Shown here piece after piece: positions 2,212 to 64,000 of a stretch of 64,000 nucleotides of DNA. The notes beneath the pieces were generated by a model. That model saw nothing but the letters and a program-made list of their open reading frames with translations. It did no database searches and was not told the origin of the DNA. The translations under genes and the position numbers were made by a program. Positions within the stretch are counted from its first letter, which is position 1. Each line of letters starts with the position of its first letter. This DNA comes from a candidate division WWE3 bacterium UBA1401 (GTDB lineage Bacteria > Patescibacteriota > WWE3 > UBA101185 > UBA10185): positions 224,916-288,915 of the forward strand of contig DBQF01000001.1 in assembly GCA_002305115.1 (NCBI GenBank). The letters run 5' to 3'.

Positions 2212-2400
2212 TGGTTGGGGTGATCCTCCTACGTCCTTCGGACTTCGGCGGGCAGGGACTCGGTTACTTGTCAGCAAATGTGGCCGTGCCATCCAAAGCG
2301 TTAACAGTAGTCGATAGAATTATTTCTAAATTGGTATTGTCTAGCTATTCTATAAAGGAAATCTGTCTGCGACGGATGGTCGGGGAAACAGGATTAGAAC
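2212..2400. repeat. left copy of a ~190-bp direct repeat carrying tRNA-Pro 3'-end-like termini
   Basis: Aligns with 9759-9951. The 124-bp core 2262-2385 is identical to 9813-9936. Termini are TGGTTGGGGTGAT (2212-2224) and TGGTCGGGGAAACAGGATTAGAAC (2377-2400, 20/24 identical to the tRNA-Pro 3' end). Confidence 0.85.
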
Positions 2401-9758: not shown

Positions 9759-9951
9759 TGGTCGGGGTGACCCTCCTACGTCCTTCGGACTTCGGCGGGC
9801 AGGCAGGGACTTGGTTACTTGTCAGCAAATGTGGCCGTGCCATCCAAAGCGTTAACAGTAGTCGATAGAATTATTTCTAAATTGGTATTGTCTAGCTATT
9901 CTATAAAGGAAATCTGTCTGCGACGGATGGTCGGGGTGACAGGACTCGAAC
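9759..9951. repeat. right copy of the ~190-bp direct repeat (includes the tRNA-Pro 3' end)
   Basis: See 2212-2400. TGGTCGGGGTGAC at 9759-9771 duplicates the first 13 nt of the tRNA-Pro 3' end found at 9928-9940. Confidence 0.85.
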
Positions 9952-10003
9952 CTGCGGCCTCACGCACCCCATGCGTACGCGCTTCCAACTGCGCTACACC
10001 CCG
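9928..10003 (-). tRNA. tRNA-Pro (anticodon GGG), CCA encoded
   Basis: Manual cloverleaf: CGGGGTG TA GCGC AGTTGGAA GCGC G TACGC ATGGGGT GCGTG AGGCC GCAGG TTCGAGT CCTGT CACCCCG A CCA. Confidence 0.85.
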
Positions 10004-11016: not shown

Positions 11017-11685
11017 TCAAATTATCGAGTACTCCCGTTTCTCAAACACCAAATGAAAAATTGGCCGCTTTTGGCCAAATGCCAGTTTCTTACTCCAGGT
11101 AGTTTCAAGTTCCCTTAAAGCAGATTTATTCAGAATACTAAATTTTACTAACTCCAACCCGAGTTGCGTATAGGCTGGAACTAGTTTTTTCTCAATATAT
11201 TCGCCACTTATTTTAGCTAAGCCCAACCTCTCAAACTCCGAAGGTTCAAATTCTGGAGAATAGCCGAAAATGATATTTAATTTACCTTCTGGTTTCAGTA
11301 ACCCTATTATATCAATTAGTTTGGTGGTATCGGGTGCAGCTACATATTGTAGTAACGTTCCCCAAGGCAAAATAATAAACACCTCATCTGCGCTAGTAGT
11401 TAGTTCTTGCGGAATATTTTCAGCCGCAGCAGGTGCAAACAGTACATTAGGCAATTTCTTCCTGGCAGCCTTTCTGGCATAAATTTGCAGTTGCTTAGGT
11501 GCAGGGTCAATGCCGATAAATAAAGTATCCGGGTGTGTTAACGCGTTCTTATAAACAAACTTGCCGTCCCCAGTTCCAAGATCAATTACAAGTCTGGAGT
11601 ATTGTTTAATGAGCTCTGTTACATCAACTTCCTCTAGCTTATTTCCCTTAACTACCTTCATTACTATACATAATACACTACCCAT
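11017..11685 (-). CDS. 16S rRNA (adenine1408-N1)-methyltransferase-like protein (NpmA/KamB family)
   Basis: 'VIDLGTGDG', 'LFIGIDP', 'ILPWGTLLQYV' and 'WSKKLAFGQKRPIF' line up with my memory of NpmA ('HIDLGTGDG', 'FYIGIDP', 'ILFPWGTLLEYV', 'WAKRLAFGRKRSFF'). Size matches. Start may be the ATG at 11661. Confidence 0.65.
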   Translation of the reverse strand: MGSVLCIVMKVVKGNKLEEVDVTELIKQYSRLVIDLGTGDGKFVYKNALTHPDTLFIGIDPAPKQLQIYARKAARKKLPNVLFAPAAAENIPQELTTSADEVFIILPWGTLLQYVAAPDTTKLIDIIGLLKPEGKLNIIFGYSPEFEPSEFERLGLAKISGEYIEKKLVPAYTQLGLELVKFSILNKSALRELETTWSKKLAFGQKRPIFHLVFEKREYSII

Positions 11686-13480: not shown

Positions 13481-13630
13481 TGACTTCTATTTTATCATGC
13501 GCTATTTAAATAAATGTTTATTTCTGTTAGAATTCATGTGTTATGACAGTGAAAAAACACAAAAAGCACGCACAACCAAATAAAGACAAGAAAAGAATCC
13601 GCAAAAAAGCAAAAAGGGTTTGCTAGATAA

Positions 13631-13696
13631 CTTCTAACTGCTTACAGCTAACTACTAACTTTAAAAAAGTCAGAAGTTAGTAGTCAGTAGTTAGTC
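13631..13696. repeat. stop-codon-rich TTAG/TCAG repeat element in inverted-arm form
   Basis: CTTCTAACTGCTTACAGCTAACTACTAAC (13631-13659) faces GTCAGAAGTTAGTAGTCAGTAGTTAGTC (13669-13696). Same motif family as 16396-16473, 24025-24056, 24455-24494 and 40786-40819. Confidence 0.7.
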
Positions 13697-15001
13697 ATAA
13701 ACATACACCGGTATTCCAATTTTTGCCCATTCAAACAACTCCTTAGCCTCTTCGTATCTAAGCTGAATACAACCTCCAGTAGCTGGGCTGCCCATAGTGT
13801 TTTCATCCCTTGAATAAATATTTCCGGCAGCATCCATGTGATATGGAATAGCATGAAAGCCGAATTGGTAAGTATTAAAAATCTTTCCAATAGGCAAATA
13901 ATAAGGCATATACCAATTTCCAAAATACGAAATGGTCATTTTTTGCTTACCTAATACTTTATATGCGCCAGCCGGTGTGTCCCAAGTTAGCCCTGTTGAT
14001 ACAATATAAGTTTTTACTAACTTTCCGTGTTCAAACCTGTATAGCCGCTGCTGCGGCTTAACAACTTCAAGGTATGCGTCATGCAATTCTCCGTTGGTTC
14101 TGGGTAAACCCTCAATAGGCAAAATTACTGCCTGGTTAACCTGTTCATCTGCCGCCCGGTACAAAATTGCCCTTCTTACAGCGGTAACGGCATCTGTTAA
14201 TAGAAGTTTTACATCATCAGATTCATATTTCGGCATTAGTTCTTTAAGATAAGTTTCAATTCTAGAAGCCGAAATGAATCCATGCATCAGCCCGTTTATT
14301 TCCTGAGTATAAATAAAAGCTGCCATTTGTTCTTTGGGAACATATATGGGTGTACCTCCATATTTGATAAGTAGTGGCGTAGTTATTTTGTCTATCAAGG
14401 CTTGTGTCTCAGTGTGCTGCAAGTCAAAGTCATCTTCAGTTTCTACTGCTAAATCTATTTTTATACGCTCTTCATTAATGACTTTTGCAATAGCCGCCCG
14501 GTCAGCAAAAGGGGATCTGTCTATTTTAATTACTGCATCCGGGCTTAATGTCCTAAACGAGTAGTCATCAAAATTAATAATGTTGTTATTTTTTATATAG
14601 GCCAGCTCAGTTTCCAAACTGTCTAGATACGCATCTAGCTTGGCAAAATTTACGGCCAACAGCTCATCTGCAATGACTGGCTCATTAGATGTGTTTTTAC
14701 AAAAAAGCGGGGGAGTTATAACTCTGCACACTCGAGTGTATCTAAATAACCTATCTCTATTTAAGCTAATGCCAATTTCCGGAAAAGTCACTGCTCTGCT
14801 GGTGTTTTGGGTATTTAGATAAACAGGTTTAGTGAAGATGCCATTTATAAGGGCTGTGCCTTCAGGCCAGCTTTTACCACTTAGATCTATTGTTCCAAGT
14901 CTTACGTTGGGTTTAAAAATGGTGGTGGGTTTTTGGTCAAAATAACTAACAGCTAAAAAAGTTACTAAGGAGACAAAAAGTAACGCCAGTTTTACTTTCA
15001 T
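13691..15001 (-). CDS. L,D-transpeptidase (YkuD domain) with a large N-terminal domain
   Basis: C-terminal 'STGLTWDTPAGAYKV...HAIPYH...SPATGGCIQL' catalytic motif. N-terminal signal/TM segment. Confidence 0.8.
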   Translation of the reverse strand: MKVKLALLFVSLVTFLAVSYFDQKPTTIFKPNVRLGTIDLSGKSWPEGTALINGIFTKPVYLNTQNTSRAVTFPEIGISLNRDRLFRYTRVCRVITPPLFCKNTSNEPVIADELLAVNFAKLDAYLDSLETELAYIKNNNIINFDDYSFRTLSPDAVIKIDRSPFADRAAIAKVINEERIKIDLAVETEDDFDLQHTETQALIDKITTPLLIKYGGTPIYVPKEQMAAFIYTQEINGLMHGFISASRIETYLKELMPKYESDDVKLLLTDAVTAVRRAILYRAADEQVNQAVILPIEGLPRTNGELHDAYLEVVKPQQRLYRFEHGKLVKTYIVSTGLTWDTPAGAYKVLGKQKMTISYFGNWYMPYYLPIGKIFNTYQFGFHAIPYHMDAAGNIYSRDENTMGSPATGGCIQLRYEEAKELFEWAKIGIPVYVYD

Positions 15002-15758: not shown

Positions 15759-16397
15759 ATGATTAAACTTAACTTTATAAACAACCTGAAAAACTCCCTG
15801 TCTAAAGAATCCCTTGGTAACAATAAAAAGCTAATATCTCGAGTGCTTCTGTTGGTCTTTTCTGTGCTTGTTTTAGGTGGCGCCGCTTACTTGGTGAAGG
15901 AAAAAAAGGATCTTTTTGTTGTAGCTACAATAGATAACAGACCCATATTTAGATATCAACTTACTGGCAAGTTAGTTCAAAACTTTGGTGCAAGTGTACT
16001 GGAAGATCTTATTTCCCAGAATTTAGCAGAGGCTGAATTAGATAAGCAGAAAGTGGCCGTTACCGAAGATGAGCTTGCCGCAAAGCTTGATGAGATAAAA
16101 CAGAGCGTTGGTGGCGACTTGGAAGCGGCCCTTGCAAGCAGTAATATGACTATGAAAGATTTGGAATCGCAAGTGGTGTTGCAGCTACGAATGGAAAAGT
16201 ATTTTGCAGACGATGTGAAAGTAACTGATGAAGAAGTGGCGCAGCTATTGGAAGATTATGCGGATCAGATTGATGGTACTGAAGATGAGAAGAAGAAGCA
16301 AGCTGTGGATTATTTGAGGAATCAGAAGTTGCAAGGGAAGATTTATGAGTGGTTGGAAGGCCTAAAGCAGCAAGCAGATATTAGGAAGTTTATTTAA
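15759..16397 (+). CDS. SurA N-terminal-domain-like chaperone (PrsA/SurA family, no PPIase domain seen)
   Basis: TM anchor followed by an acidic helical region similar to SurA_N-type proteins. Confidence 0.5.
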   Translation: MIKLNFINNLKNSLSKESLGNNKKLISRVLLLVFSVLVLGGAAYLVKEKKDLFVVATIDNRPIFRYQLTGKLVQNFGASVLEDLISQNLAEAELDKQKVAVTEDELAAKLDEIKQSVGGDLEAALASSNMTMKDLESQVVLQLRMEKYFADDVKVTDEEVAQLLEDYADQIDGTEDEKKKQAVDYLRNQKLQGKIYEWLEGLKQQADIRKFI

Positions 16398-16473
16398 CTA
16401 CTGACTACTGACATGCTCTTTATAAGAATTCCCTGTTAGTTGTTAGAAGTCAGTAGTTAGTCGTTAATCGTTA
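16396..16473. repeat. stop-codon-rich TTAG/TCAG repeat element in inverted-arm form
   Basis: AACTACTGACTACTGAC (16396-16412) faces GTTAGTTGTTAGAAGTCAGTAGTTAGTCGTTAATCGTTA (16435-16473). Confidence 0.7.
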
Positions 16474-16483
16474 CATTTCCCTA

Positions 16484-16513
16484 TTGACATTTTCACACTA
16501 TATTTTGCATAAT
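16484..16513 (+). promoter_or_regulatory. sigma70-like promoter for structured RNA 1
   Basis: TTGACA (16484-16489), 18-nt spacer, CATAAT (16508-16513). Confidence 0.4.
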
Positions 16514-16519
16514 TGATTT

Positions 16520-16706
16520 TAGGAGGTGGGCTCCCGCTCGCTTCGACTGGTTCGAGTTGATTGTTAGTATCCGCAAGGTCTAACACGGGAGCCCACTCTT
16601 AGAGACTACTATCCGCCCGGAAGTGCTGTTGGAAGAAAGTGACTAGTGTTCTGTTCATGCTTTGGCTAGTTCACTTGTCTTCCACACTTCCGGGCCCTTC
16701 CTTTTT
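16520..16706 (+). ncRNA. unclassified structured RNA 1 (~187 nt): branched 5' domain plus a long terminator hairpin
   Basis: Perfect 11-bp stem 16526-16536/16586-16596 encloses two sub-hairpins. A long imperfect hairpin at about 16615-16695 (outer 11 bp perfect) is followed by CCTTCCTTTTTT. No ORF. Confidence 0.45.
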
Positions 16707-16715
16707 TAAAATCTC

Positions 16716-16745
16716 TTGACTTACAACACCAAAATTTGCTATATA
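16716..16745 (+). promoter_or_regulatory. sigma70-like promoter for structured RNA 2
   Basis: TTGACT (16716-16721), 17-18 nt spacer, TATATA (16740-16745). Predicted TSS is at the base of the 16752 stem. Confidence 0.4.
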
Positions 16746-16751
16746 GTAACA

Positions 16752-16933
16752 AAGCCCTATAGGAAGTTATAGATTGGAGAAGCGACTTCAAACAGGACAA
16801 ACCTCACCTGTTTTTGAGTAACCGGGTTGGCAGTACTGAGGAAGCTAGTCTTCTTCCGAAGGGTTACTCTCATCAGGTGGGACTCCTAATACACACGAAG
16901 AGTGTGCTTCTCTAATCTCTTCCTGTAGGGCTT
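16752..16933 (+). ncRNA. 182-nt rod-shaped RNA with a large central bubble; candidate 6S RNA
   Basis: Nested stems: 16752-16766/16919-16933 (15 bp, one G-U); about 12 bp at 16772-16783/16906-16917; about 8 bp at 16803-16810/16874-16881; 8 bp at 16816-16823/16861-16868; then an apical hairpin. An asymmetric internal loop of about 16 and 20 nt lies between stems 2 and 3. Confidence 0.4.
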
Positions 16934-16959
16934 CCTCAAGGAGAGATCAATTCTATGTA

Positions 16960-17219
16960 GGAGGGGGAGACTGAGGGTGTGCTGAAACATCACATAAAAG
17001 TAAGCCGCCATCAAAGCAGTCTCCTTCTCCCACTCTTGCACTAAACCTCATACAATGCTAAAACGTATATAGCCTCAGAAATCTGGAATTACAAATTGGC
17101 TCACCGTCTAAACCCCTCCAATTTGTGATATCCAATTTCTATTTTTCGTTCTCCTATTTCTGCCCCAGCTATGCGCAGAGGTTTGTGTACCATAGTATGC
17201 AGCCTCTGCTCCTCTTTTT
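16960..17219 (+). ncRNA. further structured RNA modules (three hairpins, last is terminator-like)
   Basis: 14-bp stem 16960-16973/17017-17030 with two G-U pairs valid only on +. Hairpin 17085-17099/17118-17133 followed by a T-rich run. Hairpin 17175-17181/17203-17209 followed by TCCTCTTTTT. Confidence 0.35.
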
Positions 17220-17270
17220 ACATTTGATAAAATATACACATCTTAAAAAATTCTTCGAAAGGAAAATAGA

Positions 17271-17660
17271 ATGAATCCCTATGTAGCAAACATCCAAGAA
17301 GAAACCCTTGCCAACGAAAATTTCCGAAAAGTCTTATTTACCGCTCCCAACAGTCAACTAGTTGTTATGACCCTTCAACCTAATGAAGACATTGGTATGG
17401 AAGTTCACGGCAACATAGATCAATTTATTAGAATAGAAGAAGGTGAAGGTGTAGTAATTTTAGATGGGCAGGAAACCAAAGTTGAGGATGATTTTGCCAT
17501 AGTCATTCCTGCAGGTACTCAGCACAACTTAATTAACACATCTGCAGACAAGCCTCTAAAGCTATACACCATCTACTCGCCTCCGGAGCACAAAGAAGGC
17601 ACAGTTCATAGCACCAAACAAGAAGCTATGGCTGATGAATATGATCACTATTCAGCTTAA
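17271..17660 (+). CDS. cupin domain protein
   Basis: 'GMEVHGNIDQFIRIEEGEG...IPAGTQHNLIN' is the two-motif cupin signature. Confidence 0.8.
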   Translation: MNPYVANIQEETLANENFRKVLFTAPNSQLVVMTLQPNEDIGMEVHGNIDQFIRIEEGEGVVILDGQETKVEDDFAIVIPAGTQHNLINTSADKPLKLYTIYSPPEHKEGTVHSTKQEAMADEYDHYSA

Positions 17661-19360: not shown

Positions 19361-19366
19361 AAATGC

Positions 19367-19440
19367 GAAAAGCCCTGCGTTCTGAGTGTTGAAGATGGTC
19401 ATAGACCATTTCTCATCAGAAGCACAGGGCTTTTGTTAAC
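19367..19440 (+). terminator. rho-independent-type terminator after dgkA
   Basis: GAAAAGCCCTGCGTTCTGA (19367-19385) pairs with TCAGAAGCACAGGGCTTTT (19416-19434), with an inner ATGGTC/GACCAT stem, then TTTTGTT. Confidence 0.55.
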
Positions 19441-19558
19441 GGGCTGTATCTACAAGCTTGATGACATTTCTGTCACTTTAGCGAGATGCAGCCCGATAGA
19501 AGTGTGATAGCGCTGGCAGCGCGTATTTGGCTATTTAGCCAGCGCTGAAGACTGGGTT

Positions 19559-20734
19559 CTACTTGCCGTAAGGCTCTGGTGTGAGACCTATGGCAGACAT
19601 CCGGGTGGTGTCGACCAGTTGCAGGTCAACGAGATTCACACCCGGATTGATCCAAACCTTTGCGACCCAGAAGCGACCAGTTATCCTGGGGTTGTGCTCG
19701 TTGAGCACGGTTTGCTCCAGGATGACATAGTCATTCGGGCCGCTCCCCGTCCACATAATGACTCCCCGAGGGTTGTTGTCCCCGAACGGGTTCACCTGTG
19801 GAACAGGAACATATATGTAAACCCACATCCCCTCCTGCATACGCAGGAAGAACTGGGATGCAGGGCATTCCCGGGCATCGGCCGTGAAGAACCCGCCTTC
19901 CATCCACATACCTCCCTCAACAGGGATGAGCAGAGGTCTCGCGGAGAGACCCTCACCACCTTGGAGAAGGAGATTCAGCCACGTGTCTGTCCCGCTTTCG
20001 GGGACAATGGTTGGAGTGGCCGAGGGCGCGGGTGTAACCGTGCTGGTTGGTGTCCACGTCGGCGTTTCCGTTTGCGTCGGCGTTGACGTGAGCGTGGGCT
20101 CCGGCGTATTCGTACCCGTCGGCGTGATCAGCGGTATAGTCTGCGTCGGCGACGGGGTGGACGAAGGCGTGGCGGACGGGGCGGGCGTGTTGGTCATTGT
20201 CGGCGGAGGTGTCTCCGTCGGCGTGGAGCAATCCACAGACGAATCTGGAATTGCCCCGTGTGCGAATCCCTCCACCATCAGGACCTCACTCTCCCGGCGT
20301 CCCCCCGTTGGGAACAGGTATTCCTGGGGGTCTGCCTGGAACTCTTTAGGTAGGCACCTGTCGATTTCCGCGACCGTTACCTCGCCTTTTGGGAGTTCCG
20401 TTCCAGGGTCCCACACGAAGTTGAATCCGTAGACGCTTCCCCCAGTTATAACTTCTTGGGGGGTTAGCCCTACGTGCAGAAATCCTCTCTGCCGTAGAGA
20501 GAATCCCTGCGGAACCCGAATCCTGGTGACTTCCCAAATGAACTTGGGATATTCCCAGGTCCAGTGGAGATCAATTTCCACAGGGCGGCCTTCGTACTGT
20601 CCCCTGATGAAGATGATCCCCTCACCCGTGTTGTTTGCTTCTTCACGGGCGAACGCGGGGTTGGTGGAGGCCAGGGAGCCTGCCACCAAAACGACGATAG
20701 CCAGAACGACGAGCCAAAACTTGTTGCGCGACAT
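19559..20734 (-). CDS. secreted protein with Pro/Thr-rich linker; compositionally foreign (GC-rich)
   Basis: Start reassigned to the ATG at 20734 (GGAGGA 5 nt upstream). Signal peptide 'MSRNKFWLVVLAIVVLVAGSLASTNPAFA'. About 90-aa P/T/S linker. A sampled line is about 63% GC, against about 30% in the flanks. Confidence 0.7.
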   Translation of the reverse strand: MSRNKFWLVVLAIVVLVAGSLASTNPAFAREEANNTGEGIIFIRGQYEGRPVEIDLHWTWEYPKFIWEVTRIRVPQGFSLRQRGFLHVGLTPQEVITGGSVYGFNFVWDPGTELPKGEVTVAEIDRCLPKEFQADPQEYLFPTGGRRESEVLMVEGFAHGAIPDSSVDCSTPTETPPPTMTNTPAPSATPSSTPSPTQTIPLITPTGTNTPEPTLTSTPTQTETPTWTPTSTVTPAPSATPTIVPESGTDTWLNLLLQGGEGLSARPLLIPVEGGMWMEGGFFTADARECPASQFFLRMQEGMWVYIYVPVPQVNPFGDNNPRGVIMWTGSGPNDYVILEQTVLNEHNPRITGRFWVAKVWINPGVNLVDLQLVDTTRMSAIGLTPEPYGK

Positions 20735-20975
20735 GTTTCCTCCAATGTTGTTTTGAATATGCGAAAAGACTATGCCAATACCGCCCGAGGGACAAAAAAA
20801 AGACCAACTGTAACCATTTACAAATTGGCCTACAGTCCCTCTCCAAGAACTACGTCCATCATTAAAATCTATCGTAAAAGCCTTTGTTGTCAAAGTGCTA
20901 TGATGTAATTATACTTTAATATACCCTATAGGTCAAGTGGGGAAAAATTCATTATTACAATAAAAATTGGCAAAA

Positions 20976-21050
20976 CCTCACCCCCTTAATCCCCCTCTCC
21001 ATCAACTGCTGATGGAGAGGGGGACAGGGGGAGGGGGTTAGGAGGTGAGG
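20976..21050 (-). terminator. very GC-rich hairpin terminator after the 21038-22141 gene
   Basis: Perfect 14-bp stem CCCCCTCTCCATCA (20991-21004) / TGATGGAGAGGGGG (21010-21023). Outer CCTCACC/GGTGAGG pairing. On the minus strand it is followed by TTTTGCCAATTTTT. Confidence 0.6.
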
Positions 21051-22141
21051 TGTCTTAGGAGGGCGACAACATCCGGATCGCCTTGCACATCGCCGTCTTT
21101 CAACTCCAAGACCTCTCCGCCCTTTCTAAGCAAATTAACCACAATAAAATTCACCAAACTCTTATTATTCCCGTCCTTCCTTTCTTTCCTCACAAACACA
21201 TGCTCTACATGCCCGTAACTTGCTTCTTTAGCAATCTTTTCCAAATCATCTACAATAACCCTACTACTTCCCATTGCGTCATTAAGTTCTTCTACCCTTT
21301 TCTGCCGTTTGTTTTCAACAAACCCTTGTGCTACTTCCCAAGCCTGTTTTGCCAGCTGTGCATTGCTCGCCGTATGTGCGTCTATTTTTACAGACTCATC
21401 TGCTACATTTACATGCGAACTAATATCTTTATAAATGGGGTAATATTCGTCCAAACACGCCAGTATTAAAGGTGTTTCTTCATCTGTTATCACTTCTGTT
21501 ACTTTTTCATTTACTTCTATAAAGAACTCTCTGATATCTTCTTCTTTTGCGTCTTTAAACTCACCCTGGCCGTGAAACCGCAGTGGCGATTTTTTTGACC
21601 CAGTGGTATGAAACTGTAGCTGTTCCGGTACATTTATGAAATCAAAAAGTTCATTAATATTATTGGGAATAACGTGCTTGCCCACTTGTCTGCATGCCTT
21701 GTTAACGCATTGCAGAAGCCTTACATTTTTGAGATCAAGTGCCAGAACATAATAATCTATGTGGTCAAACATGTAGTTAACAAGTTGTGTTAGGTCAAAG
21801 TATTTGCCTATGTAACTTCTTTCTTCAACTGGTGTAGGTAATTGTATTATTTCTAAACTTTGGGGTGATACATAAAGCATTAAACCTTCCAGTTGTTGCT
21901 GCCAAAAGCTTTCATCTGTTTCTAGCCCCTCAAGTTTGGATAGCAAATCATGCTGTAAAGCTGTACTGGCTTCAAGTTCGGTTTTTACTTCTTTTATTTG
22001 ATTAGTGAGCCTGATTTTTGTCTGTTCCGTATTATCCCATTGTCTTTCTGATGGTAAACTCACACTAACTTTTATGACACTAGTATCTTGAGCTAGTTCT
22101 TTAAGTTCTGCGAGTAGATTTTTTTTGGTTAATAATTCCAA
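21038..22141 (-). CDS. hypothetical protein, possibly baeRF (bacterial archaeo-eukaryotic release-factor-like) family
   Basis: The N-terminal pattern 'VSVSLPSER...TKIRLTNQIKEV' resembles what I remember of baeRF families. Unverified. Confidence 0.35.
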   Translation of the reverse strand: MELLTKKNLLAELKELAQDTSVIKVSVSLPSERQWDNTEQTKIRLTNQIKEVKTELEASTALQHDLLSKLEGLETDESFWQQQLEGLMLYVSPQSLEIIQLPTPVEERSYIGKYFDLTQLVNYMFDHIDYYVLALDLKNVRLLQCVNKACRQVGKHVIPNNINELFDFINVPEQLQFHTTGSKKSPLRFHGQGEFKDAKEEDIREFFIEVNEKVTEVITDEETPLILACLDEYYPIYKDISSHVNVADESVKIDAHTASNAQLAKQAWEVAQGFVENKRQKRVEELNDAMGSSRVIVDDLEKIAKEASYGHVEHVFVRKERKDGNNKSLVNFIVVNLLRKGGEVLELKDGDVQGDPDVVALLRHLTS

Positions 22142-24024: not shown

Positions 24025-24056
24025 AACGACTGACTGCTAACTGCTAACTTCTGACT
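24025..24056. repeat. left inverted arm flanking the four-helix-bundle gene (TTAG/TCAG family)
   Basis: The reverse complement AGTCAGAAGTTAGCAGTTAGCAGTCAGTCGTT matches 24455-24486 at about 28/32. Two of the mismatches are G-U in + strand RNA. Confidence 0.75.
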
Positions 24057-24073: not shown

Positions 24074-24460
24074 TTGCTAGATCTGGTAGACAATGGTACA
24101 ATCCATGTTGTGGTATTTCGATACAGAAATTTCAGTGTTTATAAGGATGCTCAGGAATTTCATAAAGAAATCCTGCAATTTACCAGAAAATTTCCTTACT
24201 ACCTTCAAGATCAAATTTGTAGAGCTTCCCTAAGCATTATTCTTAACATTGCTGAAGGTTCAGGTAAATCCACAGATAAAGATTTGGGTAATTTTTTACA
24301 AATATCACTGGGTTCTGTATCTGAAGTTATGGCATGTTTAGAAGTCGCAGCATTAAATAATCTTATAGACCAACCTACCTTTAATAAACTCTCACAAGAC
24401 TGTGAAAAACTCTCCAAACAGCTTGGAGGTTTCAGAAAACACCTGAAAACCACAAGTTAG
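24074..24460 (+). CDS. four-helix-bundle protein (23S rRNA intervening-sequence protein / Avd-like family)
   Basis: 'YRNFSVYKDAQEFHKEI...LQDQICRASLSIILNIAEGSGKST' is characteristic of this family. Confidence 0.8.
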   Translation: MLDLVDNGTIHVVVFRYRNFSVYKDAQEFHKEILQFTRKFPYYLQDQICRASLSIILNIAEGSGKSTDKDLGNFLQISLGSVSEVMACLEVAALNNLIDQPTFNKLSQDCEKLSKQLGGFRKHLKTTS

Positions 24461-24494
24461 AAGTTAGTAGTTAGCTGTCAGTCGTCAGCCGTTA
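24455..24494. repeat. right inverted arm flanking the four-helix-bundle gene
   Basis: AGTTAGAAGTTAGTAGTTAGCTGTCAGTCGTCAGCCGTTA. Overlaps the ORF stop. Confidence 0.75.
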
Positions 24495-40785: not shown

Positions 40786-40819
40786 GTTAGTTGTCAGAAG
40801 TTAGAAGTTAGTAGTCAAC
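40786..40819. repeat. stop-codon-rich TTAG/TCAG repeat element (single arm)
   Basis: GTTAGTTGTCAGAAGTTAGAAGTTAGTAGTCAAC lies between convergent genes. Confidence 0.65.
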
Positions 40820-62570: not shown

Positions 62571-62671
62571 TATAGCTAGTGGTAATATTAGTCTGGCTAG
62601 AATTATATAAAGTATGCCTGTATTTTAGCCTGTTTACAGAAAATTGTTATTCTACTAAGATAAATACGTAC

Positions 62672-64000
62672 ATGCCGTTTTTTACCAGACAGCTCAAACA
62701 AAGTTCAGCGCTGCTATTTTTGGCTTTTTTTTCTGTCCTACTGTCTAGAAAAGCTGTAGCTCAAGATTTGCAGGTAATTGGTGCATCTGCTTCTTCTTAT
62801 GCAGCTGCTGTAGAACGATGCGAGAGCTTTGATAACCCCAATAGGTATATACCTCCCCAGCAAGGTGTATTTCAGTGCCACTCGATGAATGCCGGTTATT
62901 TTGCTAAAGACTTTGTATATGGAGGAGACCTTATTTTGGAATGGGCCGCTTTCGAACCTTCTCCCGGAAACTACGATTACTCACAAATAGATAGATTTTT
63001 AGACACCCTGAAATCTGCAGGTAGAAGGGGCTATATTCTTTTCCAAACGTATGATTATGATCTTGACACTGCCTCTGGCACACGCAGCAAGGGGTTGCCT
63101 ACCTGGTTAGAAACTGATCCTTACAACGTGCCTACAGTAGCTTTTGGTTCCAGAAATATGGCACTTCCTGTTCCCTGGAACAATGATTATATGAATAGGC
63201 ATGGTGAAGCAATAGCAGCTTTAGGCAGTTATTTAAGGGCTCATGATCCTTGTAAGTTAATTCAAGCAGTGCAAATGTCTGCTGGTGGTTTATGGGGGGG
63301 AGCTTCTATTTATTCTCCTACTATAGATAATCCTCAAAAACGAAACTTTATTGCAGCCTATAATCGTAGTTATGATCCAGAGTCTGGGCCTCCATCAGAT
63401 GAATTAAGACGTAACTTTGCCCGTAACTATTCCGATACTCTTAAAGAAACTATAAACAGGTATATGCATGGGATAACTGATCGCCCTGTTGTACTAATAA
63501 ATGCGAAAGCCCCAGGGTTTTCCTATGAGGCACCTGATCTTTTACCCGGTTATTCCAGCAGTACTCTTACTGAATATTCACATTATGCTGTTAGCACTTA
63601 TGGCGGCAGAATGTTTATGAAGGAGGCTGGTGTAGGGGGCCACGATGACAGTTGCGGCATTCGGCCTTATATGTATAATTTTTGTTCCGAGGCTTCCGGT
63701 AGTGGTTTGGGCAGATGCGTTTTTGGTAACTGCCCTGCAACCAGGTGTTTGAGTGAACCTTATCTTAGGTTTGAGGATTTTGTTGAAAGCGGCTGTAATT
63801 ATGGTTATTTGTATGCACACGAGGCTATGAACATGGACACAAAACAGCCATCTGGTGAAGAAATGCGTGGAGAAACCGTACTGTCTATTAGGTCTTCTGC
63901 TTCTTGTATATATTCCGGTCCCTTGCAAGATTCTGCTCTCGATTGGGTACATGAGAAATTGTCAGGTTATTCGGGTTTTCATATAGATATCAATGCTGTT
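62672..64000 (+). CDS. secreted protein, possibly a TIM-barrel glycoside hydrolase; 3' end lies outside the window
   Basis: Not in the ORF track because no stop lies within the window. I read an uninterrupted frame from the ATG at 62672 to 64000 (443 codons). Signal peptide 'LLFLAFFSVLLSRKAVAQ'. 'LEWAAFEPSPGNYDYSQIDRFLDTLKSAG' resembles GH42/GH35-type motifs. Confidence 0.55.
   Translation, partial: MPFFTRQLKQSSALLFLAFFSVLLSRKAVAQDLQVIGASASSYAAAVERCESFDNPNRYIPPQQGVFQCHSMNAGYFAKDFVYGGDLILEWAAFEPSPGNYDYSQIDRFLDTLKSAGRRGYILFQTYDYDLDTASGTRSKGLPTWLETDPYNVPTVAFGSRNMALPVPWNNDYMNRHGEAIAALGSYLRAHDPCKLIQAVQMSAGGLWGGASIYSPTIDNPQKRNFIAAYNRSYDPESGPPSDELRRNFARNYSDTLKETINRYMHGITDRPVVLINAKAPGFSYEAPDLLPGYSSSTLTEYSHYAVSTYGGRMFMKEAGVGGHDDSCGIRPYMYNFCSEASGSGLGRCVFGNCPATRCLSEPYLRFEDFVESGCNYGYLYAHEAMNMDTKQPSGEEMRGETVLSIRSSASCIYSGPLQDSALDWVHEKLSGYSGFHIDINAV

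What the first reader, a model, noticed from the sequence alone, without database searches (positions are those of the whole stretch)
16484..17219. ~700-nt ORF-free locus of consecutive highly structured RNAs with their own promoters and terminators; one is a 6S-like 182-nt rod
Seen in sequence: between 16398 and 17270 the track shows no ORF of 60 aa or more on either strand, in an otherwise tightly packed genome. The interval contains two good promoters: TTGACA-N18-CATAAT at 16484 and TTGACT-N17/18-TATATA at 16716. RNA 1 (about 16520-16706) has a perfect 11-bp closing stem around a branched domain, then an ~80-nt hairpin followed by a T-run. RNA 2 (16752-16933) starts at the predicted TSS. 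It folds into five nested stems (15, about 12, about 8, 8 and about 5 bp) with a large asymmetric internal bubble of about 16 and 20 nt. That matches the size and shape of 6S RNA. Further hairpins follow: 16960-17030, 17085-17133 and 17175-17209 plus a T-run. At least three stem mismatches are G-U on the + strand, where they would be A-C on the minus strand. This argues for + strand RNA rather than chance palindromes. An SD-like AGGAGGTG is half buried in the RNA 1 stem. A minimal start-stop ORF (AAGGAGAG-N9-ATG-TAG, 16938-16960) follows RNA 2. Apart from the tentative 6S call, I could not match these RNAs to RNase P, SRP, tmRNA or any riboswitch consensus I know.
Basis: partly seen in the sequence, partly recalled or inferred. 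Interest (0 to 1): 0.75.

Follow-up and report, generated by a model that had tools for sequence, protein, structure and literature searches.

The report
Orphan structured RNA locus in Patescibacteria
An 870-base gene-free stretch in an ultra-small (candidate-phyla-radiation) bacterium folds into unusually stable RNA hairpins behind promoter-like sites. It matches no known RNA family, including 6S RNA, and is missing from the same site in the three nearest relatives found, so it is an unproven, lineage-specific non-coding RNA candidate.

Summary
Window 16398-17270 has no ORF above 51 aa, and all six frames carry all three stop codons. The + strand folds far better than shuffles: whole locus z = -10.6, RNA 1 z = -7.2, RNA 2 z = -6.5. 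Other long intergenic regions score -0.6 and -1.2. An 11/12 sigma-70 match sits at 16484 and a weaker one at 16716; each places the start site at the first base of a long closing helix. No Rfam 15 family matches, and RNA 2 scanned alone gives no hit at all, including 6S. No copy or homologue was found in the window, in 221 kb of related contigs, in phage or plasmid collections, or in the pattern scans. The genome is a deep-branching Patescibacterium (best ClpC hit 57%). Three relatives that keep the surrounding gene order have the SurA-like and cupin genes 17-21 nt apart, so the locus is lineage-specific and covariation cannot be tested. My best reading (confidence 0.4) is two + strand units encoding orphan structured sRNAs. 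The rivals are palindromic or mobile debris, a long cupin leader, and a divergent 6S RNA. The '6S-like' label rests on shape only.

The parts
16394..16467 (.). Hairpin built from tandem heptamers (ACTACTG / GTTAGTA) directly after the stop of the SurA-like gene. It belongs to a repeat family found at other gene ends in this window. It forms the left edge of the intergenic region and is not part of the unique RNAs.
   Evidence: (z -5.4)
16484..16513 (+). Promoter-like site P1: TTGACA-18-CATAAT (11/12). The predicted start, near 16519-16521, falls at the start of the RNA 1 closing helix.
   Evidence: sequence
16518..16603 (+). RNA 1 domain. A 21-bp closing helix holds AGGAGGUG in its 5' strand. 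It encloses a three-way junction with two hairpins, with loops GGUUCG and a GCAA tetraloop.
   Evidence: the covariance model built from it scores 114 bits on + and 19 bits on -
16615..16707 (+). An 81-nt, nearly perfect hairpin (16615-16695), then CCUUCC and U6 (16702-16707). It is terminator-like, but the U-tract starts 7 nt after the stem.
   Evidence: not called by the terminator scan
16716..16747 (+). Promoter-like site P2: TTGACT-18-TATATA with TG two bases upstream of the -10 hexamer (extended -10), or CTTACA-16-TATAGT (9/12). The predicted start is near 16752.
16752..16933 (+). RNA 2, a 182-nt rod. It has 15-bp and 13-bp closing helices. The central bubble has a 10-nt 5' strand (GACUUCAAAC, unpaired p > 0.8) and a 3' strand that forms a CACAC-GAAGA-GUGUG hairpin. 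Helices of 4, 8, 8 and 4 bp follow.
   Evidence: (z -8.1)
16938..16960 (+). AAGGAGAG-N9-AUG-UAG, a Shine-Dalgarno-like site followed by a start-stop. The UAG is the first triplet of the next hairpin's 5' arm.
   Evidence: sequence; no function tested
16957..17033 (+). Hairpin R3, with a purine-rich 5' arm (GGAGGGGGAGACUG) and a pyrimidine-rich 3' arm. It weakly resembles the RNA 1 closing helix: both carry TAGGAGG ... CCCACTCTT at the same spacing.
   Evidence: (global alignment z 2.6, p 0.01)
17077..17150 (+). Hairpin R4 (22 bp, 17077-17140) followed by AUUUUUCG. This is the most canonical terminator-like arrangement in the locus.
17151..17219 (+). A single-stranded CU-rich tract (UUCUCCUAUUUCUGCCCC), then hairpin R5 (17175-17209) and UCCUCUUUUU. 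The layout is like a base-pairing sRNA seed followed by a terminator.
   Evidence: a weak chance-level PsrR1 alignment (E 5.4) covers this layout
17224..17272 (+). Two weak promoter-like sites (9/12 each) just upstream of the cupin start at 17271. Other genes here also have promoter-like sites only a few to some tens of bases from their start codons.

Best explanation
The locus is a lineage-specific block of non-coding DNA, most simply read as an insertion although a loss in the relatives' ancestor cannot be ruled out. It separates two genes that are adjacent, and probably co-transcribed, in the relatives. I read it as two + strand transcription units that make orphan, highly structured small RNAs.

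Unit 1 (about 16520-16707) is a three-way-junction domain followed by a long 3' hairpin. Unit 2 (about 16752 to 17147 or 17219) is a 182-nt rod followed by hairpins, and it ends in a CU-rich single-stranded tract plus a terminator-like hairpin.

Shown: absence of coding capacity, extreme and strand-biased foldability, promoter-like sites aligned with helix starts, and absence from the relatives.

Inferred: that the promoters fire, where the transcripts end, and any activity. The likeliest activities are protein binding by the long, almost perfect duplexes (RNA polymerase or RNase III type partners) and base pairing by the 3' CU-rich tract with Shine-Dalgarno regions (GGAGGTGAT in this clade).
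For: - No ORF above 51 aa, stops of all three kinds in every frame, and no Pfam signal in the ten longest stop-free translations.
- Whole-locus z of -10.6, against -0.6 and -1.2 for other long intergenic regions. RNA 1 and RNA 2 rank in the top five local structures of the 128 kb scanned on both strands.
- The + strand folds better than the - strand in all three segments: -86.2 vs -76.9, -79.6 vs -69.5 and -83.6 vs -79.4 kcal/mol, with z -4.6 vs -1.2 for the last.
- G-U pairs versus A-C mismatches: 16 to 1 in the + fold, 11 to 6 in the - fold.
- Promoter-like sites occur only on the +strand, and P1 is one of five 11/12 matches in the window. Several other 10-11/12 matches in the window lie just upstream of gene starts, so the consensus seems to apply in this organism.
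- The cupin gene has its own nearby promoter-like sites, and short leaders are the rule here. This argues against a 750-nt leader.
- No second copy of any element in 64 kb.
Against: - There is no expression data.
- The locus is missing from the syntenic position in three related species, where the SurA-like stop and the cupin start are 17-21 nt apart. It is therefore not an old, conserved RNA gene.
- No homologue was found anywhere, so there is no covariation support.
- The helices are longer and more perfect than in most functional RNAs, which is typical of palindromic repeats.
- No hairpin passes the terminator consensus scan.
- An 11/12 promoter match is not rare enough to be evidence on its own.
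- This genome also carries other very stable intergenic hairpins at 19364-19543 and 20974-21040.
Confidence: 0.4

Rival explanations
1. The hairpins are selfish or neutral palindromic DNA: decayed MITE, REP or ERIC-like elements, or inverted duplications. They accumulated in a tolerant spot between two genes. Any transcription is incidental, and at most they act as terminators or mRNA stabilisers.
For: - Absent from all three syntenic relatives.
- The left edge of the region is a genome-wide heptamer repeat.
- RNA 2 has 15-nt terminal inverted repeats that are 93% complementary.
- The helices are long and nearly perfect.
- Other extreme hairpins flank a foreign-looking high-GC gene nearby.
- No known RNA family matches.
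Against: - No second copy of any element in the window or in 221 kb of related contigs.
- No hit for the RNA 2 terminal repeats in the metagenome or viral scans.
- No target-site duplications are visible at the hairpin ends (sequence).
- Strand-biased stability and promoter-like sites aligned with helix starts are not expected from neutral palindromes.
Confidence: 0.25
2. The region is one long, structured 5' leader of the cupin gene. P1 and P2 drive cupin expression, the three hairpin-plus-U-run elements act as conditional terminators, and the start-stop mini-ORF or a protein decides read-through.
For: - Everything is on the same strand as cupin, and in the relatives cupin depends on upstream transcription.
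- The U-tracts are offset from the stems, so termination may be leaky.
- The start-stop with a good Shine-Dalgarno site abuts hairpin R3.
- The cupin-proximal promoter-like sites are only 9/12.
Against: - No cupin homologue in 30 metagenomic loci and 18 further contigs has a related leader.
- No riboswitch or leader family matches.
- Leaders in this genome appear very short.
- A 21-bp P1-type helix is unlike a switching aptamer.
Confidence: 0.2
3. RNA 2 is this lineage's divergent 6S-type RNA. It would be a promoter-mimicking rod that sequesters the RNA polymerase holoenzyme and templates a short product RNA from its bubble.
For: - Length of 182 nt.
- A long closing stem, and a robustly open 10-nt 5' bubble strand opposite a 3' strand that forms a small hairpin, followed by an internal stem with small loops.
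- A strong local z-score of -8.1.
- Published work shows that structure-and-sequence homology searches, Rfam included, lose power with evolutionary distance and failed for the 6S-related Ms1 RNA in Actinobacteria (PMC9130861).
Against: - Zero Rfam hits at E <= 10 when RNA 2 is scanned alone, so there is no 6S signal at all.
- Absent from the syntenic site in three relatives, which is unexpected for a housekeeping RNA.
- The bubble is smaller than the canonical one.
- There is no terminator or processing signal at its 3' end.
- Shape alone has misled before, as with Ms1.
Confidence: 0.1

Closest known systems
6S RNA (Rfam RF00013 and related models) and Ms1 RNA
   Same: RNA 2 has the size (182 nt) and the general architecture of closing stem, open central bubble and internal stem. 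The 3' bubble strand can form a hairpin, as in several 6S RNAs (my own knowledge).
   Different: No score against any Rfam 6S model. The 5' bubble strand is only 10 nt. The RNA is not conserved in relatives. Binding to RNA polymerase and product-RNA synthesis are untested.
Palindromic intergenic repeats (MITEs, ERIC, REP/BIME, Correia elements)
   Same: Imperfect palindromes of 60-180 nt, lying in intergenic DNA next to gene ends, absent from related genomes, and with terminal inverted repeats.
   Different: Single copy in all the sequence available. No target-site duplication. The five hairpins are unrelated in sequence. Stability is strand-biased and promoter-like sites sit in register with the helices.
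Promoter-to-terminator bacterial sRNA genes (for example PsrR1-type seed plus terminator)
   Same: Sigma-70-like promoter, structured body, a CU-rich single-stranded tract and a 3' hairpin with a U-run. A comparable promoter + structured RNA + canonical terminator unit sits upstream of a cupin homologue in L012.
   Different: Much longer and more duplex-rich than typical sRNAs. No family match. The L012 RNA is not homologous.
TIGR stem-loop arrays (TIGR-Tas systems, common in candidate-phyla-radiation bacteria; PMC12045711)
   Same: A tandem series of variable palindromic hairpins with no repeat conservation, in a Patescibacterium.
   Different: No box C (RUGAUGA) on the + strand and only one TGATGA on the - strand. 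No Nop-domain gene among the 17 neighbouring ORFs scanned, 8.6-25.2 kb of the window. Unit sizes are irregular (60-180 nt rather than regular short units).

Membership tests
6S RNA | Length of about 160-200 nt | tested here: met
   182 nt between the predicted start (16752) and the end of the closing helix (16933). The ends are predicted, not mapped.
6S RNA | Mostly double-stranded rod with a large, open central bubble between a closing stem and an internal or terminal stem | tested here: inconclusive
   The rod and a robustly unpaired 10-nt 5' bubble strand are present. The 3' strand mostly forms a hairpin. The bubble is smaller than the canonical one.
6S RNA | Match to the family covariance models (Rfam 15) | tested here: not met
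   No hit at gathering score. No hit at E <= 10 in the 971-nt scan or in the 196-nt scan of RNA 2 alone.
6S RNA | Housekeeping gene conserved among related genomes | tested here: not met
   The locus is absent from the syntenic site in L034/L035, L048 and L049. A copy elsewhere in those genomes could not be checked.
6S RNA | Binds the sigma-70-type holoenzyme and templates product RNA | not testable with these tools
   Needs RNA polymerase pull-down and small-RNA sequencing.
MITE / REP-like palindromic repeat | Terminal inverted repeats or an overall imperfect palindrome | tested here: met
   For example 16752-16766 and 16919-16933, 15 nt and 93% complementary, plus the other hairpins.
MITE / REP-like palindromic repeat | Multiple dispersed copies in the genome | tested here: inconclusive
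   No second copy in 64 kb or in 221 kb of relatives. Only about 12% of the 544-kb contig is visible.
MITE / REP-like palindromic repeat | Target-site duplication at the ends | tested here: not met
   No direct repeats flank any hairpin (sequence).
TIGR stem-loop array | Box C / box D motifs inside each hairpin loop | tested here: not met
   No RTGATGA on either strand, and a single TGATGA on the - strand.
TIGR stem-loop array | Adjacent Tas (Nop-domain) gene | tested here: not met
   Pfam scans of 17 neighbouring ORFs within 8.6-25.2 kb show no Nop domain.
Riboswitch or cis-regulatory leader of the cupin gene | Conserved structured element upstream of orthologous genes, or a match to a known aptamer class | tested here: not met
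   No Rfam match. Cupin homologues in about 48 contigs lack it.
Independent sRNA gene (promoter to intrinsic terminator) | Sigma-70-type promoter and a GC-rich hairpin directly followed by a U-tract | tested here: inconclusive
   P1 is 11/12 and P2 about 9/12 with an extended -10. Hairpins with nearby U-runs exist, but none passes the terminator scan, and the U-runs are offset by 1-7 nt.

The most novel reading that the evidence does not exclude
The locus is a self-contained, horizontally acquired non-coding RNA cassette in a minimal-genome symbiont. Its 182-nt rod would be a new, sequence-unrelated class of RNA-polymerase-binding (6S/Ms1-type) or other protein-sequestering RNA, and it would be co-expressed with companion structured RNAs.
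Probability: 0.1. Interest if true: 0.7.

Novelty: new member of a known kind. Interest (0 to 1): 0.4.

Why it matters
In my literature searches I found no catalogue of regulatory RNAs for Patescibacteria, which have about 0.5-1 Mb genomes. An 870-nt non-coding investment with the most extreme folding signal in the window would be a concrete place to look for one. If RNA 2 bound RNA polymerase, it would extend 6S-type regulation to a lineage where sequence models fail. As it stands, the locus is a single-genome candidate that is not conserved in the nearest relatives, so it may equally be palindromic insertion debris.

Tried and rejected
- **Known RNA families.** I ran Rfam 15 on the whole window at gathering score, on the locus at E <= 10, and on RNA 2 and RNA 1 alone. 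Only chance-level miRNA, PrfA and PsrR1 alignments came back. ARAGORN found no tmRNA.
- **Decayed protein gene or recoding.** Rejected, because stops of all three kinds occur in all frames, tblastx against the loci found nothing, and Pfam found nothing in the ten longest stop-free translations.
- **Copies or homologues.** All of these searches were negative:
  - repeats within the window;
  - blastn against phage and plasmid collections;
  - an anchored pattern for RNA 2 in the metagenome contigs;
  - six patterns in viral contigs;
  - blastn and nhmmer against the fetched loci;
  - a covariance model of the RNA 1 junction against 265 kb.
- **Synteny through the SurA-like gene.** GTDB gave one hit at 35% identity and the nearest proteins are 40% identical. 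Their contexts are not syntenic.
- **Closest relatives through ClpC.** The best hit is only 57% identical, so no close relatives exist in the collection.
- **Source contig.** Exact-sequence look-ups for it returned nothing.
- **Cupin-linked leader RNA.** Rejected. The L012 upstream RNA is unrelated.
- **TIGR stem-loop array.** Rejected.
- **SRP RNA, RNase P RNA, integron attC sites (RYYYAAC ... GTTRRRY) and retron RNA.** I considered these by inspecting the sequence and by the Rfam scans. None of the required motifs, and no reverse transcriptase gene, is present.
- **Tandem duplication within the locus.** Only a weak resemblance between the RNA 1 helix and hairpin R3, and the covariance model does not confirm it.
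- **GC content of intergenic regions.** Not discriminating: 0.42 here against 0.39 overall.

Full report
**What is there**

The interval 16398-17270 lies between a SurA_N-like gene (15759-16397, +) and a cupin gene (17271-17660, +). Its longest ORF is 51 aa. Every reading frame is broken 14-22 times by a mixture of TAA, TAG and TGA, so alternative genetic codes do not rescue a gene. The ten longest stop-free translations hit nothing in Pfam, and tblastx against all fetched DNA is empty. The region is non-coding.

**Is the structure more than chance?**

Yes. The + strand values against dinucleotide shuffles are:
- 16515-16710: -86.2 kcal/mol, z -7.2.
- 16752-16935: -79.6 kcal/mol, z -6.5.
- 16936-17225: -83.6 kcal/mol, z -4.6.
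- The whole 711 nt: z -10.6.

Two other long intergenic regions of the same window give z -0.6 and -1.2. In a z-scored local-folding scan of both strands of the window, RNA 2 (z -8.1) and RNA 1 (z -7.5) are among the five strongest signals. The others are a hairpin at 20974-21040 and a triple hairpin at 19364-19543. This genome therefore does carry other extreme intergenic hairpins.

- A 21-bp helix closes a three-way junction with a GCAA tetraloop (16518-16603).
- An 81-nt hairpin follows (16615-16695).
- A 182-nt rod spans 16752-16933. Its 10-nt 5' bubble strand stays open in the ensemble (p > 0.8), while the 3' strand forms a small hairpin.
- Three further hairpins lie at 16957-17033, 17077-17140 and 17175-17209.

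**Strand and transcription signals**

The - strand folds less well in every segment: -76.9, -69.5 and -79.4 kcal/mol, with the last at z -1.2. G-U pairs outnumber A-C mismatches 16 to 1 in the + fold, against 11 to 6 in the - fold. This bias is real but modest.

Promoter-like sites occur only on the + strand. P1 (TTGACA-18-CATAAT) is an 11/12 match. Such matches are only about twice as frequent in the window as in shuffles. Several of the other 10-11/12 matches in the window sit just upstream of gene starts, so the consensus appears to be used in this organism.

Its TATATA lacks the conserved final T, although a TG two bases upstream gives an extended -10, and the scanner prefers CTTACA-16-TATAGT at 9/12. 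Both sites place the start on the first bases of a long closing helix, which is the most suggestive feature.

The 'terminators' are less clean than claimed. None passes the consensus scan, and the U-runs begin 7, 1 and 5 nt after the three candidate stems.

**What it is not**

- **Not a known RNA family.** Rfam 15 finds only three tRNAs in the window. At E <= 10 the locus yields only chance alignments. RNA 2 scanned alone yields nothing at all, so there is no trace of 6S, and RNA 1 alone yields only miRNA-hairpin noise. ARAGORN finds no tmRNA.
- **Not a TIGR stem-loop array.** That class of variable tandem hairpins is common in candidate-phyla-radiation bacteria (PMC12045711). Here there are no box C motifs on the + strand and no Nop-domain gene among the 17 neighbouring ORFs scanned.
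- **Not multi-copy in the sequence available.** No element is repeated in the window. The hairpins are unrelated to each other apart from a weak resemblance between the RNA 1 helix and R3, which a covariance model does not confirm.

**Relatives**

The gene content includes ADP-forming acetyl-CoA synthetase, pyruvate:ferredoxin oxidoreductase and a NiFe hydrogenase. Together with the taxonomy of the hits, this places the window in Patescibacteria. The lineage is isolated. The best SurA-like homologue is 40% identical and the best ClpC homologue 57%, and the source contig (544 kb) could not be retrieved.

The well-conserved cupin gave the key result. Contig L034 (identical junction in L035) keeps the whole neighbourhood PMT_2 - YkuD - C39 peptidase - SurA-like - cupin - histidine kinase - DAG kinase, with protein identities of 31-73%. 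L048 and L049, each identified from a short contig, keep the genes immediately around the junction. In all three species the SurA-like stop and the cupin start are 17-21 nt apart, and the spacer contains only a GGAGGTGAT-type ribosome-binding site. The 873-nt locus is therefore lineage-specific.

The three relatives group together (58-67% SurA-like identity among themselves, against 38-41% to the window). Insertion here and loss there cannot be formally distinguished. However, the left 70 nt of the region is this genome's own heptamer repeat, which favours insertion.

Thirty further cupin loci from metagenomes, and the other contigs fetched, show no related upstream RNA. Pattern scans of metagenome and viral contigs, and blastn against phages and plasmids, were negative. 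A covariation test is therefore impossible with the available data.

**Most likely explanation**

I favour, at about 0.4, two + strand transcription units making orphan structured small RNAs. Unit 1 runs from P1 through the junction domain to the long hairpin. Unit 2 runs from P2 through the rod, R3 and R4, and ends in a CU-rich single-stranded tract plus R5.

The non-coding nature, the extreme and strand-biased foldability, and the promoter-helix register are shown. Transcription, transcript ends and activity are inferred. The long duplexes suggest protein binding or RNase III processing. The 3' CU-rich tract (UUCUCCU...CCCC) could pair with the clade's GGAGG ribosome-binding sites.

The rivals are:
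- Palindromic or mobile debris (0.25). It is favoured by the absence from relatives, the terminal inverted repeats and the near-perfect helices. It is disfavoured by single-copy status, the lack of target-site duplications and the strand bias.
- A long conditional-termination leader of the cupin gene (0.2).

Shape resemblance to 6S is genuine. The Rfam test failed, the syntenic conservation test failed, and the Ms1 precedent shows that shape alone does not establish membership (PMC9130861).

**Verdict**

This is a real, statistically exceptional, non-coding structured locus of unknown function in an isolated Patescibacterial lineage. The 6S label is unsupported. Novelty is that of a new, unclassified member of the general kind 'bacterial structured small RNA', if it is expressed at all. 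Interest is moderate (0.4). The candidate is clean and testable, but it rests on a single genome and is not conserved.

Noticed in passing
window 19559-20737 (- strand), with flanks 19364-19543 and 20738-21051: A 392-aa ORF with 55-67% GC in a 40% GC genome. It has a signal-peptide-like N-terminus and no Pfam hit. Very stable hairpins bracket it: a triple hairpin at 19364-19543 (z -8.0) and one at 20974-21040 (z -10.6). In L034 the DAG kinase gene is instead followed directly by a DUF362 gene. This is probably horizontally acquired DNA.
   Followed up: partly
window 2212-2400 and 9759-9951: A direct repeat of about 190 nt, 96% identical. Its second copy overlaps the 3' end of tRNA-Pro (9928-10003, -). 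This is the signature of a roughly 7.5-kb element integrated at a tRNA gene.
   Followed up: no
window 13628-13701, 16394-16467, 24028-24056, 24456-24494, 40786-40818: A family of tandem heptamer repeats (GTTAGTA / GTCAGTA and their complements) that form hairpins at gene ends. They resemble cyanobacterial STRR repeats but occur here in a Patescibacterium. They are absent from the syntenic relative L034.
   Followed up: partly
window 20974-21051: The most stable local hairpin of the window. Its arms carry CCUCACC(U/C)CC and GGAGGUGAGG, which are anti-Shine-Dalgarno and Shine-Dalgarno-like sequences. It overlaps the stop codon of the baeRF (release-factor-like) gene.
   Followed up: no
window 24074-24460: A 128-aa protein of the '23S rRNA intervening sequence protein' family (PF05635), which is also the family of DGR Avd proteins (my own knowledge). 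The gene is flanked on both sides by inverted heptamer arrays. No reverse transcriptase gene was seen nearby.
   Followed up: no
window 11017-11685 (- strand): A strong match (E 2e-55) to the NpmA-type 16S rRNA m1A1408 methyltransferase family, known for aminoglycoside resistance, in an uncultivated symbiont genome.
   Followed up: no
L012 4318-4575: Upstream of a cupin homologue there is a TTGACA-17-TATGCT promoter-like site, a structured RNA of about 130 nt closed by GGGGGUGG / CCCACCCC, and a canonical terminator. A small membrane-protein ORF follows. There is no Rfam match, and my RNA 1 model does not find it.
   Followed up: partly
window 16511-16600 versus 16949-17037: The RNA 1 closing helix and hairpin R3 share AATT..TAGGAGG at the 5' side and CCCACTCTT at the 3' side, at the same spacing (438 / 437 nt apart). 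The global alignment gives z 2.6 (p 0.01). This may be an old duplication or convergence of GGAGG / CUCC-rich stems.
   Followed up: partly
window 62571-63577: A second ORF-poor stretch of about 1 kb (longest ORF 50 aa) without exceptional folding. It may be a pseudogene.
   Followed up: no
L021 4829-4934 (- strand): A SAM-I riboswitch (60 bits) lies next to the cupin homologue in one metagenomic contig and serves the divergent upstream gene. It is unrelated to the finding.
   Followed up: no
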